Shown piece after piece: positions 44,318 to 50,012 of a stretch of 64,000 nt of DNA (position 1 is its first letter; each line of letters begins with the position of its first letter). The notes beneath the pieces were generated by a model. It had not been told where the DNA came from. It did no database searches and saw nothing but the letters and a program-made list of their open reading frames with translations. This DNA comes from a virus. The stretch covers positions 29,304 to 93,303 of IMG/VR virus record IMGVR_UViG_3300047476_001657; one strand, given 5' to 3'. The position numbers and the translations under genes were made by a program.

Positions 44318-45097
44318 ATGATAAACAAACTTGTCCATTTCTCGGACTTACATTTGAGATTGATTAAAGACCACGATTTATATAAATCCGTGTTGTCTGA
44401 TATGTTCAATCAATTTAAGGAAATACAACCTGATAGAGTCGTATTCACCGGTGATTTAGTTCATAGCAAAAACCAAGTCAGTCCAGAATTAATTGAAATG
44501 GTTAGATGGACATTGGAAGAATGTTCCAAAATTGCCAAGACAATCATTATTATTGGTAATCACGATATGTTAGAAAACAACTTATCAAGATTAGATACCT
44601 TAACACCCATCATTGAATCAATGAATAATGATAACATTGTTTATTACAAAGATAGAGGTGTATATGTTGATGAGAATATTGATTGGGTTGTGTATTCCTT
44701 ATTTGAACATAATATTCCACCAGTCATTGAGAAATCAAATAACCTAAAAATTGGATTATTTCACGGACCTATTATAGGGTTATATACAGACATTGGATAT
44801 AAGTTTGAAACAGGATATGAGGTGAGTAAATTTGATGGTTGTAATCTTGTTTTATGTGGGGATATTCATAAGAGACAAGTATTTGATATTCCTAATAATA
44901 AGAAAGCATATATGGTGGGTTCAACCATCCAACAAAACTATGGGGAAACAATTAAAAAACACGGATTTGGTGTTTATGATGTTGTTAAAGATGAATATAG
45001 ATTTGTTGACTTGAATAACCCCAAACCTTTTCTTAAATTTGAAATAAGTTCATTTGAAGATATAATTGATGGAAAAGAAAAACTCATTAACACTTAA
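44318..45097 (+). CDS. sbcD: Mre11/SbcD (gp47-like) metallophosphoesterase nuclease, short form
   Basis: SDLH, GDLVH, GNHD, FHG, GDIH, GSTIQQNYGE motifs. Confidence 0.85.
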   Translation: MINKLVHFSDLHLRLIKDHDLYKSVLSDMFNQFKEIQPDRVVFTGDLVHSKNQVSPELIEMVRWTLEECSKIAKTIIIIGNHDMLENNLSRLDTLTPIIESMNNDNIVYYKDRGVYVDENIDWVVYSLFEHNIPPVIEKSNNLKIGLFHGPIIGLYTDIGYKFETGYEVSKFDGCNLVLCGDIHKRQVFDIPNNKKAYMVGSTIQQNYGETIKKHGFGVYDVVKDEYRFVDLNNPKPFLKFEISSFEDIIDGKEKLINT

Positions 45098-45788
45098 CAA
45101 ACAAAATCAAAAAGATTTAACTGATTATTGTAAGTTGAATGATATTGAGGATGTTGATAAGTTTTTTCAACAATGTTTCAAACAAGGGTTTGATATTAAA
45201 AAATATGGTTTATTAGGTGAAAATAATGAAAGAGTTGTTGAATACATCGAAAAAGAAGTTCCGATTGAGGTTATCAAATATATTGAAAAGGAAACGATTA
45301 GAGAAGTCCCCATCGAAGTTATTAAAGAGGTTGAAAAAATTGTCGTTGTCGAGAAAGAAATCCCAATTGAGAAGATAGTTGAAAAAACTATTGAAGTACC
45401 AGTTGAGGTTATTAAAGAGGTTGAGAAGATTGTTGAGGTAACTAAGGAAGTACCAATTGAATCTAAAAATATTTCTCAAAATGAGATTATAGTGGAAAAA
45501 ATTATCCAAGTACCCATTGAAGTTGAGAAGATAGTCGAAAAAATTGTCGAAGTTCCAATTGAAGTAGTTAAAGAAATTATTAAAGAAGTTGAGGTAATTA
45601 AAGAGGTTGAAAAACCAAATGAAAAGATGGGAATGTTACAAGACACTTTGATGAAGTTAAGAAGGGAAATGGGAGATAAAGACAAAACTATAACTGAACT
45701 TAATAATAAAATAGAACAACTTGAAAAATTGGTATCAAATACTGGTGCTGTTTATATGAAGGGTTCTAATTTATCTCAAAATTTATAA
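45069..45788 (+). CDS. EKIVEVP-repeat (alveolin/articulin-like) coiled-coil protein
   Basis: Many V/I-E-K-I-V-E-V-P repeats then a C-terminal heptad region; ATG 45069. Confidence 0.75.
   Translation: MEKKNSLTLNKQNQKDLTDYCKLNDIEDVDKFFQQCFKQGFDIKKYGLLGENNERVVEYIEKEVPIEVIKYIEKETIREVPIEVIKEVEKIVVVEKEIPIEKIVEKTIEVPVEVIKEVEKIVEVTKEVPIESKNISQNEIIVEKIIQVPIEVEKIVEKIVEVPIEVVKEIIKEVEVIKEVEKPNEKMGMLQDTLMKLRREMGDKDKTITELNNKIEQLEKLVSNTGAVYMKGSNLSQNL
45750..45788 (+). repeat. Direct repeat copy 1 (3' end of the repeat-protein gene)
   Basis: 33/39 identical to 47282-47320. Confidence 0.85.
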
Positions 45789-45796
45789 ATAAAATA

Positions 45797-46663
45797 ATGT
45801 ATACAAATACTGATTGGAACAAATTTCATTTAATTGATGTTGTTGAAGGATTAAAAAAAATTGAATCAAATTCCGTTGATATTGTATTGTCAGATCCACC
45901 ATATAACATTGGTAAGGATTTTGGACTTTGTAAAGACAATTTAGAGTTAAACACCTACTTACAATGGTGTGATGAGTGGATAAATGAAAGTATTAGAATT
46001 TTAAAACCATCTGGGTCACTGTTTATCTATGGTTTCAGTGAAATCTTAGCTCATTTGTCAGTTAGGATTAATTTAGATAAAAGATGGTTAATTTGGCACT
46101 ATACCAACAAAACAGTTCCAAGTTATAATGGATGGCAAAGAAGTCACGAAAGTATTCTTTATTGTTGGAAAGAGAAACCCGTATTCAATAGAGATGAAAT
46201 TAGAATTCCTTACACTGAAACTTTCCTTAAAAACTCGGCAGGTAAAACAAGAAAAAAAAGTAACACTGCAAGATTTGGGGGTAAAGAAGAAACTACATAT
46301 ACAGCACATGAAAATGGAGCACTCCCAAGAGATGTTTTTACTGATGTTTCTACTTTAGCAGGTGGTGCAGGTAAAGAGAGATATTTTTTATATGATGGTG
46401 AAGTCTATCCTGGTACGGAAATAAAAAACTTTGACATTGAAAAATGTCTTAAACACCCAACACAAAAACCTTCAAAATTGACTCAAAAATTATTACTTTC
46501 AGCTAAAACTGATGGTTGTAAAGTAGTTATCCCATTTGGAGGTTCAGGTTCTGAAGGTGTTGTTTCTAAAAAATTGGGTTTAGATTTTATTGGGTTTGAA
46601 ATAAATGAGGATTATTTAAAACTAGCAAATGGGGCTGTAAATAAATTTCAAGATATATTTTAA
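45797..46663 (+). CDS. DNA amino-methyltransferase (N6-A/N4-C, beta class)
   Basis: SDPPY precedes HPTQKP and PFGGSGS. Confidence 0.92.
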   Translation: MYTNTDWNKFHLIDVVEGLKKIESNSVDIVLSDPPYNIGKDFGLCKDNLELNTYLQWCDEWINESIRILKPSGSLFIYGFSEILAHLSVRINLDKRWLIWHYTNKTVPSYNGWQRSHESILYCWKEKPVFNRDEIRIPYTETFLKNSAGKTRKKSNTARFGGKEETTYTAHENGALPRDVFTDVSTLAGGAGKERYFLYDGEVYPGTEIKNFDIEKCLKHPTQKPSKLTQKLLLSAKTDGCKVVIPFGGSGSEGVVSKKLGLDFIGFEINEDYLKLANGAVNKFQDIF

Positions 46664-46698
46664 ATAACTTTGTGAGTTAACTCACAAAGTTATTTAAA
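46659..46698. repeat. Perfect 40-bp palindrome spanning both stop codons
   Basis: TTTAAATAACTTTGTGAGTT followed directly by AACTCACAAAGTTATTTAAA. Confidence 0.95.
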
Positions 46699-47195
46699 TC
46701 TTCAACATTTCTAATTGGTGTTAAATAGTTTTTTATGTTTTTATAATTACACCAAAGTCCTTGTCCTTCGGCACCACCTTGTTGTGTGACCAATCCCTTA
46801 GACTTCAAATTAAGTAAGTCTGATTTACTTATGATGAACACATCAATACTATTGAAATTAACACCACAGAATAGTAGATAATCATATTCGTGATCCTCCA
46901 TTATATGTTGCCATTTCCAATCACCATTAGTGACCCAAAATCTTGAAGATTTAACTTCAAAGTTTTTACCTGATAATATTTGACGTAAATCGTGACCTGT
47001 ATTAGTTGGCTTATCAAGGGATAAACATTCCTTAATAATTCTTTGTATTTTTTCCCCAAACGATTTATTACTAAGAGAAACGATTTTTAGTATGTCTGGA
47101 TGTGCATTGTTTTCAACATAATAATCTAATTGAGTTTTTACAGTTTTTATACTTTCAAAAGTTTTAGTTTTACTTATTTGTTCTATTGATATCAT
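46677..47195 (-). CDS. PD-(D/E)xK endonuclease, putative restriction enzyme
   Basis: FGE...GHD-x9-FEVKSS...YDYLLF pattern; adjacent to the MTase; the only likely minus-strand gene in this + block. Confidence 0.7.
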   Translation of the reverse strand: MISIEQISKTKTFESIKTVKTQLDYYVENNAHPDILKIVSLSNKSFGEKIQRIIKECLSLDKPTNTGHDLRQILSGKNFEVKSSRFWVTNGDWKWQHIMEDHEYDYLLFCGVNFNSIDVFIISKSDLLNLKSKGLVTQQGGAEGQGLWCNYKNIKNYLTPIRNVEDLNNFVS

Positions 47196-47281
47196 ATTAC
47201 TTATTTTTATTTAATGTAAACATAATTAAAAATTTTGAATTGTAAAAAAAAATAATTAATTTCTTTAAAAAGGATAATTGG

Positions 47282-47320
47282 GTTTATATGAAAGGTTCTA
47301 ACCTATCTAAAAATCTGTAA
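47282..47320 (+). repeat. Direct repeat copy 2 (orphaned gene 3' end, VYMKGSNLSKNL*)
   Basis: Encodes nearly the same C-terminal peptide and stop as 45750-45788. Confidence 0.85.
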
Positions 47321-47327
47321 TATTTAT
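47320..47327 (+). promoter_or_regulatory. Putative late motif ATATTTAT
   Basis: 11 nt before ATG 47339. Confidence 0.5.
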
Positions 47328-47338
47328 TGTAAAAAAAT

Positions 47339-47666
47339 ATGGAAAAGTTAATTAAAAGAGTTTTTGGAAGATAGAATTGATTTTGAGGGATATGATATCA
47401 GAGTTAATCCAAACAGAAAAATTAGTCAGTTATATGATGTATTTGAAGATGAATATGGCTGGGCTATCAAAAGAATGGGAGAAAAGGAAGCTATAATTGA
47501 ATGGTTACGAGGATTACCTAGTGTATTAGATATCCCCTTCTATTACTATGATATCAGTAATTTATTATATGCTTTAGGTTTTGATGAAGTTAAGGAAATG
47601 GAAGATACAGAAATTGGTGATTTATACTATGACTTACTCGCAAAAACCATTATGGAAAACAAGTAA
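47339..47666 (+). pseudogene. Hypothetical gene with an apparent +1 frameshift near its start
   Basis: The ATG 47339 frame stops at 47374. Removing one A from attAAAAgag joins MEKLIK to EFLEDRIDF (the 47364 frame). Confidence 0.5.
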
Positions 47667-47691
47667 ATAATTTAACATTTAATTTTTACAG

Positions 47692-47729
47692 AACCCCACT
47701 ATTTTAATTAAAAAAAAGATAGTGGGGTT
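47692..47729 (+). promoter_or_regulatory. 11-bp hairpin covering the GTG start of the nuclease gene
   Basis: AACCCCACTAT / ATAGTGGGGTT. Confidence 0.65.
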
Positions 47730-48018
47730 TATTTACTTTATCAAAGATAATTCCAATCAAGTCAAAATCGGATATACAAATAGGGATGTACAAAAGAGGG
47801 TGAAAGAATTGAATTCACCCAATTTAAGTATTATCCTTGAATTTGAGTCCAAACATCCCACCAAATTAGAAAAGGCCTTACATTTTAGATTCAAACAATA
47901 TAATATTGAGAGGGAGTGGTTTAATTTAACAGATTTCAGTATTGAAGAATTGAAGAAAATTTGTTATACTCTTGAAGAGGGTATTAACACTATAAAACAA
48001 AATAATAATTTTTTATGA
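47722..48018 (+). CDS. GIY-YIG family nuclease (T5orf172/MUG113-like)
   Basis: GFIYFI...VKIGYT...KRVKEL...LEKALH...REWF. Confidence 0.8.
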   Translation: MGFIYFIKDNSNQVKIGYTNRDVQKRVKELNSPNLSIILEFESKHPTKLEKALHFRFKQYNIEREWFNLTDFSIEELKKICYTLEEGINTIKQNNNFL

Positions 48019-48218
48019 AAAACATTTTAGTAAAAATTGGATTTAGAATAGCAAGTTGGCTATACAAACAAGGAATTATCGCACCACAACTTTTATCACA
48101 CGAAGATGGAGCTCCAGTGGAGTATATTAAAGTTCTAACATCAAATGAAAGTGAAGAACTTAAAAACAATGGGAAATTGAAAGGGGATTGGTCTTGGGAA
48201 ATAAACTATCAAAAATAA
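48015..48218 (+). CDS. Hypothetical protein
   Basis: ATGA overlap with the upstream gene. Confidence 0.6.
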   Translation: MKNILVKIGFRIASWLYKQGIIAPQLLSHEDGAPVEYIKVLTSNESEELKNNGKLKGDWSWEINYQK

Positions 48219-48227
48219 TAATTTTTT

Positions 48228-48572
48228 ATGATGACATTAATTGCTTGGTTTGTTATGGCCTATGGGTTCACAAACATTATGGTTTATGGAAGTATTTTTC
48301 AGGGATTGAGAGATACTATTAAAAATTGGGGGAATAACCCATATTTTCCACTTAACTTCTTATTCAATTTTATAGATGGGATTCTGTCTTGTGTAATGTG
48401 CTGCTCAGTTTGGATCGGATTTTTCATTGGTTTGGTAATTTGGTCACCCAATAGTCATTTATTTGGAATGCCAATATACACATCTTGGTTTTTTGATGGA
48501 TTAATGGCGTCAGGTGCAGTATGGGCAATTAATGCTATTGTTGAATATTTTGAAGAGAATAGACCCAAATGA
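48228..48572 (+). CDS. Small membrane protein (DUF1360-like)
   Basis: Three hydrophobic segments with a CVMCCSVW motif. Confidence 0.65.
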   Translation: MMTLIAWFVMAYGFTNIMVYGSIFQGLRDTIKNWGNNPYFPLNFLFNFIDGILSCVMCCSVWIGFFIGLVIWSPNSHLFGMPIYTSWFFDGLMASGAVWAINAIVEYFEENRPK

Positions 48573-49189
48573 AAAAAGTATTAGAATTATTTGCTGGTAG
48601 TCGTTCTATTGGTAAAGCTGCTGAATCACTTGGAATGGAAGTATTTTCAGTTGATTGGGAACAATATGAGGGTATTAATTTATCAAAAGATATTGGACAA
48701 TTAACAATGGAAGATGTACCTTTTGTTCCTGATGTTGTTTGGGCTTCACCAGATTGTACAACATATACCATTGCGGCAATATCACACCACAGAAATGGAA
48801 CTGAACCAAAGAGTGAATATGCCATCAAATGTGATGGAGTTAATCAACATTTTATATCTTTGATAAAAGAATGGTTAAACATTAATCCAAATATGGTGTT
48901 CTTTATTGAGAATCCAAGGGGTATGTTAAGAAAGATGCCTTGGATGCAAGAGTTTACAAGACATACAATATGGTATTGTAAGTATGGGGATGAAAGAGCA
49001 AAACCCACCGATATATGGACAAATAGCACAACTTGGATTCCAAGACCGATATGTCACAATGGTAATAAAGAATGTCATCACCAACCAGCACCAAGGGGCA
49101 GTAAAACAGGAACACAAGGTAGAAAGGGAAGTTATGAAAGAAGTAAGATACCGGAACAACTTTGTATGGAAATATTAACATCCTTTTAA
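48569..49189 (+). CDS. Short phage-type C5-cytosine methyltransferase-like protein
   Basis: LELFAGS, WASPDC, IENP, KPTDIW, RSKIP. Confidence 0.75.
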   Translation: MKKVLELFAGSRSIGKAAESLGMEVFSVDWEQYEGINLSKDIGQLTMEDVPFVPDVVWASPDCTTYTIAAISHHRNGTEPKSEYAIKCDGVNQHFISLIKEWLNINPNMVFFIENPRGMLRKMPWMQEFTRHTIWYCKYGDERAKPTDIWTNSTTWIPRPICHNGNKECHHQPAPRGSKTGTQGRKGSYERSKIPEQLCMEILTSF

Positions 49190-49271: not shown

Positions 49272-50012
49272 ATGTGGGATGGTAAATATACTTTTGAAAA
49301 AAGTAAAATAATACAAGGTGATAGTTTAGATAAAATGAAATATATACCAAATGGTAGTGTTGATTTAATTGTAACTGACCCACCATATAAAATGACAAAA
49401 CAAGGAAATTCTTGTAGACCAAATTATATGAAAAGTGGAATGGGTGAAAATTTATTTGATGGGGAATTACCAAATACAAAAGAGTGGATGAACCTATGTT
49501 TTGATAAATTAAGAGATGACGCACATTTTTATGTTTTTACAAATATCAATAGTTTACACGAATATTTAGATGTGGCAAAAGAATGTGGATTTAAATTACA
49601 CAACATAATTTCTATGATTAAAGACACTAAAATGCCAAATAGGTGGTATTTGAAATATACGGAATTTGTTTTGTTTTTCCGAAAAGGTAGAGCATTTCCA
49701 ATAAATGATATGACAAGTAGGGATTATGAATTTGTAGAAACACCAACACTAAAAAATGGTAAAATACATATATCACAGAAACCATTAAATTTTATTGAGA
49801 AATTAATAACTAATTCATCAAAAGAAGGTGAAATATGTTTGGATTTATTTAGTGGTAGTGGAACTCTTGCAGAGGCGTGTTTAAATACAAATAGGGATTT
49901 TATCATTATAGAGAAAAATCCAAATGACTTTGAAAAAGGCAAAAAGAGGGTTGAAGAAATTTTTAAAAATTATGGATTTAACCCACAAAGTTTATTAGAC
50001 ACACAAATGTAG
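49272..50012 (+). CDS. DNA amino-methyltransferase (beta class), orphan
   Basis: TDPPY, HISQKP, LDLFSGSGT. Confidence 0.9.
   Translation: MWDGKYTFEKSKIIQGDSLDKMKYIPNGSVDLIVTDPPYKMTKQGNSCRPNYMKSGMGENLFDGELPNTKEWMNLCFDKLRDDAHFYVFTNINSLHEYLDVAKECGFKLHNIISMIKDTKMPNRWYLKYTEFVLFFRKGRAFPINDMTSRDYEFVETPTLKNGKIHISQKPLNFIEKLITNSSKEGEICLDLFSGSGTLAEACLNTNRDFIIIEKNPNDFEKGKKRVEEIFKNYGFNPQSLLDTQM

What the first reader, a model, noticed from the sequence alone, without database searches (positions are those of the whole stretch)
45750..47320. Integrase-less R-M-like cassette that appears to carry a replacement 3' end for the gene it inserted into
Seen: the last 13 codons of the EKIVEVP-repeat gene (GTT TAT ATG AAG GGT TCT AAT TTA TCT CAA AAT TTA TAA, 45750-45788) recur 1.5 kb later as GTT TAT ATG AAA GGT TCT AAC CTA TCT AAA AAT CTG TAA (47282-47320). 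The copies are 33/39 identical and 5 of the 6 differences are synonymous. Between them sit only a beta-class MTase and a convergent PD-(D/E)xK nuclease. Inference: synonymous divergence means both copies evolved as coding sequence in different phage alleles, so this is not a fresh target-site duplication. The cassette probably arrived by recombination from a relative, bringing its own version of the gene end and leaving the old end orphaned. With no integrase or transposase present, it could be a selfish R-M element spreading by cut-and-recombine between co-infecting phages, an anti-competitor weapon, or a tool for degrading host DNA.
Basis: partly seen in the sequence, partly recalled or inferred. 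Interest (0 to 1): 0.8.

Follow-up and report, generated by a model that had tools for sequence, protein, structure and literature searches.

The report
Mobile restriction-modification cassette in jumbo phage
A two-gene restriction-modification cassette sits at the end of a jumbo-phage gene between two copies of that gene's last 39 bases, the recombinase-free "insertion with long target duplication" already described for such cassettes in bacteria, here seen at two different sites in freshwater phages.

Summary
The last 13 codons of the repeat-protein gene (45750-45788) recur at 47282-47320, 33/39 identical. Only a beta-class DNA methyltransferase and a convergent 172-aa nuclease lie between them. 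The nuclease is PD-(D/E)xK, PvuII/NhoI-like.

All 20 related IMG/VR phage contigs in which this gene end could be found carry it once, and none carries the cassette. Three read gene end, TATTTAT, next gene, which is the predicted empty site.

The same cassette (about 70% aa identity) sits in an unrelated 282-kb phage. There it is flanked by a perfect 30-nt duplication of an intergenic terminator, and a relative shows the empty site. This fits the "insertion with long target duplication" described by Nobusato 2000 and Furuta 2010 for bacterial R-M systems, whose repeats often span a stop codon and so keep the target gene whole.

The six differences between the window's copies leave one amino-acid change and the stop codon (P about 0.002-0.009). 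The two copies are therefore probably different alleles. A later crossover inside the repeat between a cassette-bearing and a cassette-free phage is the simplest explanation.

I rate this a new member of a known kind, of moderate interest. Enzyme activity, recognition site and benefit to the phage are untested.

The parts
45069..45788 (+). Target gene 'rep' (EKIVEVP-repeat protein), intact through its conserved C-terminus
   Evidence: ORF. Homologues follow the SbcD-like gene in 33 related contigs. The C-terminal peptide (V/I/A)(Y/F)MKGSNLxxN(L/I)* was found in 20 of them.
45750..45788 (+). Repeat copy a: the live last 13 codons of rep, including the stop
   Evidence: (D7).
45789..47281 (.). 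Inserted segment of 1,493 bp. With one repeat it forms a 1,532-bp unit.
   Evidence: Absent from all 36 related contigs. Repeat spacing is 1532 here and 1534 at the second site.
45797..46663 (+). Beta-class N6-adenine/N4-cytosine DNA methyltransferase. It starts 8 nt after the rep stop, so it is probably co-transcribed with rep (inference).
   Evidence: PF01555 2.9e-36; PADLOC MTase_II 8e-49; PDB sequence hits MboIIA, CcrM, RsrI; motif order DPPY then FGGSGS.
46659..46698 (.). Perfect 40-nt palindrome between the convergent stop codons; probable bidirectional terminator
   Evidence: I1. Fold -21.4 kcal/mol, z -8.1. Hairpins of different sequence occupy the same place in L039 and L043. Metagenome contigs break here.
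46677..47195 (-). 172-aa PD-(D/E)xK nuclease, PvuII/NhoI-like; putative Type II restriction enzyme
   Evidence: D69, E80 and K82 are invariant in 21 homologues. Model pLDDT 92.9. VIA Z 11.1 Eco15I-N, 11.0 NhoI, 10.4 I-Ssp6803I, 8.3 PvuII. PADLOC REase_II 7.5e-8.
47196..47281 (.). Nuclease leader plus filler. About 35 nt next to the ATG are shared with other cassettes. The rest is about 50 nt of unrelated filler holding a leader-like ATTGTAAAAAAA motif.
   Evidence: Alignment A2.
47282..47320 (+). Repeat copy b: orphaned gene end, non-coding
   Evidence: Homology to rep ends of relatives starts exactly at 47282 and runs to 47326. There is no ORF.
47321..47666 (+). Downstream module 'g100' with its own TATTTAT... 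leader. Its 5' end is broken by a 47-nt deletion.

Best explanation
The segment is a small Type II-like restriction-modification cassette: a beta-class methyltransferase, a hairpin, and a convergent PvuII/NhoI-like PD-(D/E)xK nuclease. It belongs to a family found so far only in phage and metagenome DNA.

The cassette entered a hypervariable spot of a freshwater jumbo phage (probably of Bacteroidota) without any recombinase of its own. It did so by 'insertion with long target duplication': about 30-40 bp of the target ends up on both sides of the insert. Because the duplicated stretch spans the stop codon of the repeat-protein gene, that gene keeps its conserved C-terminus. The second copy is left as an orphan in front of the next gene.

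Shown:
- the anatomy of the cassette;
- empty sites in relatives;
- a second, independent insertion of the same cassette family with a perfect 30-nt duplication.

Inferred:
- The two copies in the window are different natural alleles. After a primary insertion, a cassette-bearing genome probably crossed over with a cassette-free relative inside the repeat, most easily in its first 11 identical bases. That joined donor rep, copy a and the cassette to recipient copy b and g100. The repeat thus works as a portable homology arm.
- The methyltransferase protects phage DNA and the nuclease cuts unmethylated DNA of the host or of competing phages.
For: - Repeat and anatomy.
- One gene end only, and no cassette, in related contigs: 36 contigs, no cassette; gene end found once in each of 20.
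- Empty site in L002-L004 reads stop, TATTTAT, g100 homologue.
- The same cassette (nuclease 71%, MTase 70% aa) in a 282-kb phage lies between perfect 30-nt copies of a terminator, spacing 1534. Four independent assemblies show it. The empty site in L056/L057 has one hairpin.
- The cassette occurs in at least five different contexts (window, L039, L041, L043, L046).
- No terminal inverted repeats were seen at the ends and no recombinase is in the insert.
- Furuta 2010 (PMC2853133) defines the class as R and M both in the insert, insert under 20 kb, duplication over 30 bp. It notes that repeats often span start or stop codons, leaving the target gene intact.
- Two-allele inference: six random substitutions leave at most one aa change and the stop with P 0.0015-0.0085. 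Every variant in either copy also occurs in natural alleles.
- Orphan homology begins exactly at the repeat edge.
- Nuclease and MTase identity.
Against: - Only two flanked insertions are available. L043 shows no flanking repeat, and L041 and L046 are too short to tell.
- The 30-nt repeat in L039 equals Furuta's cut-off of 'longer than 30 bp' and does not exceed it.
- No primary insertion with identical repeats at the rep site was found, and no contig shows excision or a 1,532-bp skip.
- The two-allele argument rests on only 39 nt.
- No enzyme activity, recognition site or methylation was tested.
- One phage (223 kb, 76% complete) has the nuclease but no MTase of this family. A strictly paired toxic R-M would not predict that.
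- The best structural matches, NhoI and Eco15I, are methylation-directed enzymes.
Confidence: 0.7

Rival explanations
1. Module shuffling by illegitimate recombination in a hot spot. One phage carried rep, cassette and other genes. Another carried rep then g100. They were joined once at a non-homologous point that happened to lie 39 nt before the second phage's rep stop. The orphan is then a linker that travelled with the g100 module, and no target-duplicating mechanism is involved.
For: The rep-to-g114 interval has at least six different gene contents among relatives. The left and right flanks have different nearest relatives: the rep C-terminus is 97% to L016, while g100 and g114 are closest to L007. 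The cassette ends are not conserved between sites. The two copies look like two alleles.
Against: It does not explain why the same cassette at an unrelated site is also flanked by a direct repeat of similar length (30 nt, perfect) with a clean empty site. Two such coincidences are unlikely.
Confidence: 0.15
2. An old target duplication that diverged in place. Both copies come from one allele, all six changes arose after the insertion, and there was no second recombination event.
For: The closest available relatives are only about 86% identical in SbcD protein, so the insertion could be old. No close cassette-free sister is available.
Against: Five synonymous changes in 12 codons imply heavy divergence at silent sites. 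An unconstrained orphan of the same age should by then carry many changes that would alter the encoded peptide, plus indels, yet it still reads as a valid allele with its stop (P 0.002-0.009). The second-site repeat is 30/30.
Confidence: 0.08
3. A homing-type element. The nuclease cuts the cassette-free gene end specifically, and repair copies the cassette in. The synonymous changes in copy a make the carrier allele immune. The MTase is an accessory.
For: The fold is also close to the PD-(D/E)xK homing endonuclease I-Ssp6803I (Z 10.4). The nuclease occurs without the MTase in one phage. A T5orf172/GIY-YIG-like gene lies 400 bp away.
Against: The two known targets, a gene end and a GC-rich terminator, share no sequence. 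The orphan copy would remain a cleavable target. The nuclease is linked to the MTase in five contexts and two gene orders. PADLOC models match Type II REases.
Confidence: 0.05
4. Integration by a site-specific recombinase or a transposase acting in trans, with the repeats being att sites or a long transposon target duplication such as IS1630 makes at inverted repeats.
For: The L039 target is an inverted repeat, and IS1630 duplicates such targets over 19-26 bp (cited in PMC2853133).
Against: There is no integrase or transposase in or beside the insert. The cassette has no terminal inverted repeats or conserved ends. The rep target is not an inverted repeat, and the two targets share no core sequence.
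Confidence: 0.02

Closest known systems
Insertion of R-M gene complexes with long target duplication (Nobusato et al. 2000 Gene 259:99; Furuta, Abe & Kobayashi 2010, PMC2853133)
   Same: R and M genes alone form a small insert. There is no mobility gene. Direct repeats of 30 bp or more come from the target, and an empty site exists in a relative. The repeat spans a stop codon, so the target gene stays whole. In their H. influenzae cases 46-bp repeats overlap a gene's 3' end.
   Different: The host genome here is a virus (freshwater jumbo phages), not a bacterium. One cassette family is seen at two sites. The repeats in the window are 15% diverged with a coding-type pattern, whereas the bacterial repeats in their Table 2 are near-identical. 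That suggests later spread by crossover within the repeat.
PvuII / NhoI / Eco15I-N / EcoRV branch of PD-(D/E)xK restriction endonucleases
   Same: Small single-domain enzyme (172 aa against 157 aa for PvuII). The D...ExK motif has similar spacing. Structural Z is 8-11. It is paired with a PF01555 beta-class MTase, as R.PvuII is (one search lists M.PvuII).
   Different: No sequence family match: no Pfam or NCBIfam hit and identity to solved structures is 8-15%. Recognition site unknown. The MTase motif DPPY points to N6-adenine rather than the N4-cytosine of M.PvuII; that reading rests on my own knowledge of the motif rules.
Integrative elements that carry a replacement 3' end of their target (tRNA-gene integration)
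   Same: After insertion the target gene is completed by one repeat copy and the displaced native end lies at the far side of the insert.
   Different: Those elements use an integrase and a fixed att core. Here there is no recombinase, and a different target is duplicated at the second site.
Free-standing homing endonuclease genes of T4-like phages (intronless homing)
   Same: A nuclease gene inserted between conserved phage genes in a variable hot spot, spreading between co-infecting relatives by recombination.
   Different: Here the nuclease is paired with a methyltransferase, the targets differ between sites, and the target is duplicated.
Virus-encoded R-M systems (chloroviruses, phage P1) - from my own knowledge
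   Same: A virus carries both the nuclease and the protecting methyltransferase. Proposed uses are host-DNA breakdown or exclusion of competitors.
   Different: No functional data here. The cassette is strain-specific and clearly mobile.

Membership tests
R-M insertion with long target duplication (Furuta 2010 criteria) | Both an R and an M homologue lie in the inserted sequence | tested here: met
   MTase PF01555 2.9e-36. Nuclease PD-(D/E)xK fold and PADLOC REase_II 7.5e-8.
R-M insertion with long target duplication (Furuta 2010 criteria) | Insert shorter than 20 kb with no other mobility genes | tested here: met
   The insert is 1,493 bp and holds only two genes.
R-M insertion with long target duplication (Furuta 2010 criteria) | Flanking direct repeat longer than 30 bp | tested here: met
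   39 nt at 33/39 in the window. The second site has exactly 30 nt, 30/30, which is borderline.
R-M insertion with long target duplication (Furuta 2010 criteria) | A related genome has an empty site carrying the repeated sequence once | tested here: met
   L002-L004 for the window. L056/L057 for L039.
Type II restriction-modification system | MTase with a SAM-binding motif and the catalytic (D/N/S)PP(Y/F) motif | tested here: met
   SDPPY and FGGSGS are read from the translation.
Type II restriction-modification system | Endonuclease with a catalytic PD-(D/E)xK or other nuclease core | tested here: met
   D69, E80 and K82 are invariant in 21 sequences.
Type II restriction-modification system | Nuclease and MTase recognise the same site, and methylation blocks cleavage | not testable with these tools
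   Only linkage is shown: the pair is adjacent in 5 contexts and 2 gene orders with similar divergence. One phage has the nuclease alone.
PvuII family (Pfam PF09225) | Sequence match to the family model | tested here: not met
   No Pfam hit at E up to 0.1 other than a weak DUF match. The similarity is structural only.
Homing endonuclease gene | One long specific target at the cognate empty allele | tested here: inconclusive
   The two insertion targets are unrelated in sequence. Cleavage was not tested.
Integrase- or transposase-borne element | A recombinase gene and defined element ends (att core or terminal inverted repeats) | tested here: not met
   Neither is present.

The most novel reading that the evidence does not exclude
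A virus-restricted R-M cassette family moves among jumbo phages with no recombinase in two steps. First, a primary insertion duplicates 30-40 bp of the target. Second, the duplicated gene end serves as a portable homology arm that carries the cassette into any co-infecting relative with that conserved gene end. The footprint is a pair of repeats from two different alleles. This would be natural evidence for the 'release and re-invasion' half of Kobayashi's proposed R-M life cycle, which Furuta 2010 says lacks evidence.
Probability: 0.3. Interest if true: 0.6.

Novelty: new member of a known kind. Interest (0 to 1): 0.45.

Why it matters
It extends a recombinase-free way of moving R-M genes, known from bacterial chromosomes, to virus genomes. 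One cassette family is caught at two sites, each with a clean empty-site comparison. It explains how an insertion at a gene's end can leave the gene whole.

The diverged, coding-type repeat hints that the duplication later helps the cassette spread by homologous recombination among co-infecting phages.

It also flags an uncharacterised family of small restriction-enzyme-like nucleases. This family matches no Pfam family and was not found in about 185,000 bacterial and archaeal species genomes by a pattern scan. Its specificity could be worth determining.

Tried and rejected
- blastn of the locus against 50,697 phage records: no match.
The contexts of the closest nuclease homologues (P0002, P0003, 77-79% identity) could not be read.
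- Sequence search of the nuclease profile against PDB: nothing meaningful.
- Pfam and NCBIfam: no family for the nuclease.
- Pattern scan of the genome-contig collection (one genome per bacterial and archaeal species): no relative. This is a scan with two peptide patterns, not proof of absence.
- Further viral-contig scans with the nuclease profile gave the same two other phages.
- Flanking repeats were sought around L043, L041, L046 and the nuclease-only L037. None was convincing, and most of these contigs are too short.
- Terminal inverted repeats at the cassette ends: none.
- Extended homology upstream of the orphan: none.
- The leader-like stretch before the orphan (47239-47281) against the g100 leader is not significant (P 0.13). 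It resembles generic A-rich gene leaders.
- I tried to guess the recognition site from palindrome avoidance. TCGA is wholly absent from the MTase-less, nuclease-bearing 223-kb phage (0 against 173 expected). But TCGA, GATC and CATG are also avoided in cassette-free relatives, so no site can be assigned.
- Metagenome contigs show no joint skipping the 1,532 bp, that is, no excised or empty form. Contigs drop rare variants, so this says little.
- GC content of the insert does not differ from the flanks.
Full report
**1. The observation**

The window is part of a 93,303-bp virus record (G000:C1:29304-93303). CheckV estimates it at 32% complete, so the whole phage is probably a jumbo phage of roughly 290 kb.

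The last 13 codons of the 240-aa EKIVEVP-repeat gene ('rep', 45069-45788) occupy 45750-45788. They recur at 47282-47320 with 33/39 identity. The translations are VYMKGSNLSQNL* and VYMKGSNLSKNL*.

The second copy is not part of any ORF. A stop lies in frame at 47243.

Only five 39-mer pairs within 3 kb reach this identity in the whole window. The other four are tandem repeats inside genes. Ten Markov simulations gave none.

Contigs from two unrelated studies (runs X5, X6) match both junctions without a single difference. The arrangement is therefore real DNA.

**2. What lies between the copies**

ORF 45797-46663 (+) is a PF01555 DNA methyltransferase.
- Pfam scores 2.9e-36 and PADLOC MTase_II scores 8e-49.
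- Its relatives among solved structures are MboIIA, CcrM and RsrI.
- SDPPY lies near the N-terminus and FGGSGS near the C-terminus. That order marks the beta class, and the DPPY form suggests N6-adenine; both rules are from my own knowledge.
- It starts 8 nt after the rep stop.

ORF 46677-47195 (-) has no Pfam or NCBIfam family, but several lines identify it as a nuclease.
- 38 metagenomic clusters of homologues exist.
- Their alignment has invariant D69, E80 and K82.
- The AlphaFold model is confident, with pLDDT 92.9.
- It matches restriction-enzyme folds: Eco15I N-domain Z 11.1, NhoI 11.0, I-Ssp6803I 10.4, PvuII 8.3.
- PADLOC Type II REase models match at 7.5e-8 and 1.2e-4.

The two genes converge on a perfect 40-nt palindrome (46659-46698). 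It folds at -21.4 kcal/mol with z -8. Cassettes in L039 and L043 carry equally strong hairpins of different sequence at the same place. This is probably a bidirectional terminator.

**3. Relatives and the empty site**

The neighbouring SbcD-like protein found 36 related IMG/VR contigs. None carries the cassette. The conserved gene end was found in 20 of them, always as a single copy, with many synonymous variants.

The interval between rep and a conserved membrane-protein gene ('g114') is a hot spot:
- Distant relatives go straight from rep to g114 (L018, L020, L022, L033).
- L001 and L009-L017 have only a T5orf172 gene there (L012 and L019 end too early to tell).
- L002-L004 have g100 then T5orf172.
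- L005-L008 and L021 have other inserts of 1-1.5 kb.

In L002-L004 the rep stop is followed by TATTTAT and, 20 nt later, by the ATG of the g100 homologue.

In the window, homology to rep ends begins exactly at 47282 and continues to 47326. The g100 module follows from 47330.

**4. The cassette is mobile and duplicates its target**

The nuclease occurs in other contexts.
- L039, L040, L044 and L045 are four independent assemblies of one 282-kb phage. They carry nuclease (71% aa) plus MTase (70% aa) between two convergent phage genes.
- There the cassette is flanked by two perfect copies of a 30-nt terminator hairpin, AAAAATCCCCTCTTTACCGGAGGGGTTTTT. The spacing is 1534 nt, against 1532 in the window.
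- Relatives L056 and L057 have the same two flanking genes separated by a single hairpin. This is a clean insertion with a 30-bp target duplication.
- Further cassettes lie in yet other contexts. L041 follows a lysine-rich ORF. L043 has an HNH gene next to the MTase. L046 has the two genes co-directional.
- The cassette ends are not conserved beyond about 35 nt upstream of the nuclease ATG. No inverted terminal repeats or recombinase genes are present.

**5. Comparison with what is known**

Furuta, Abe and Kobayashi (PMC2853133), following Nobusato et al. 2000, describe 'insertion with long target duplication' of R-M systems in bacteria.
- Their criteria are R and M both in the insert, an insert under 20 kb, and a duplication over 30 bp, found by comparison with an empty site in another genome.
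- They note that the repeats often span a start or stop codon, leaving the target gene intact.
- All criteria are met by the window. The second site is borderline only on repeat length.
- They suggest the mechanism rests on a property common to all R-M types, such as double-strand breakage. It has not been shown.

**6. Why the two copies differ**

The six differences give one amino-acid change and keep the stop. Six random substitutions do that with P 0.0015-0.0085, depending on transition bias. Each variant in either copy is also seen in natural alleles.

Five silent changes in 12 codons mean divergence typical of different phage lineages. Yet the orphan has not decayed. The two copies are therefore most simply two alleles.

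I infer two steps. First came a primary insertion with a 39-bp duplication. Later, the right repeat of a cassette-bearing genome crossed over with the gene end of a cassette-free relative that had rep next to g100. The crossover was most easily in the first 11 identical bases.

This also explains why the orphan's homology starts exactly at the repeat edge. It fits the flanks having different nearest relatives: the rep C-terminus is 97% to L016, while g100 and g114 are closest to L007.

A single illegitimate joint in a mixed infection remains possible, as does in-place divergence. Both are less likely, for the reasons given under the rival explanations.

**7. Function**

Nothing was tested. The layout fits an R-M pair: the MTase is probably read through from rep, and the nuclease sits on the opposite strand with its own leader.

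A pattern scan of one genome per bacterial and archaeal species found no relative of the nuclease. The family may therefore be virus-borne.

One 223-kb phage (76% complete) has the nuclease without this MTase, so the pairing is not absolute.

An attempt to read the recognition site from palindrome avoidance failed. TCGA, GATC and CATG are strongly avoided in these phages whether or not they carry the cassette.

**8. Verdict**

This is a new, viral example of a known kind of R-M mobility. The two-allele repeat is a modestly novel twist that deserves a population-level check.

Noticed in passing
window 47339-47372 (and L007:10741-10812): The gene after the orphan is damaged at its 5' end. ATG 47339 reads MEKLIKRVFGR* and the main ORF (47364-47666, TTG start) is in another frame. 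Against the 124-aa L007 homologue there is a 47-nt deletion. Contigs of runs X5 and X6 stop at 47322 and 47359 and give almost no cover over 47387-47650, so this gene may vary in the population.
   Followed up: partly
window 45789-48227; loci L001-L033: The interval between rep and the membrane-protein gene (48228-48572) is a hot spot with at least six different gene contents among relatives. A T5orf172/MUG113 (GIY-YIG-like) gene (47722-48018) is preceded by a hairpin (47695-47730, CCCCACTAT...ATAGTGGGG) whose right arm holds its GTG start. A similar hairpin precedes the gene in L001, L009 and L016.
   Followed up: partly
G000 (whole record), G001 = L143-L154, G002 = L155-L169: These freshwater jumbo phages show extreme palindrome avoidance. 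TCGA is 0 observed against 173 expected in G001. GATC is 0 against 715 in G002 and 26 against 271 in the window's genome. CATG is 53 against 583 in G001. GCGC is 1 against 11 in the window's genome. The avoided set differs between lineages, suggesting different host restriction pressures.
   Followed up: partly
L037:5001-5507 (IMGVR_UViG_3300008117_000011): The nuclease homologue (75% aa) stands alone, tightly packed between unrelated genes. No MTase of this family is present anywhere in the 223-kb record. Distant homologues in cyanophages (S-ShM2, S-RIM14, S-SSM2; 34% identity) also have no adjacent MTase.
   Followed up: partly
window 47239-47250 and 47326-47337: The exact 12-mer ATTGTAAAAAAA occurs only twice in the window, on either side of the orphan. 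The first copy resembles A-rich gene-start leaders (for example L007:14629, window 43792, 44077, 47989). It may be a scrap of a former neighbouring gene's leader carried along with the cassette.
   Followed up: partly
window 48569-49189 and 49272-50012: Two further DNA methyltransferase genes lie within 3 kb. One (phrog_757) is conserved in relatives at 89-94%. The second, a beta-class PF01555 gene, is absent from the fetched flanks of relatives and may be another mobile insert.
   Followed up: no
L043:1742-2476 and L046:1-1016: The cassette varies. In L043 an HNH endonuclease gene abuts the MTase start. In L046 the MTase and nuclease are co-directional rather than convergent.
   Followed up: no
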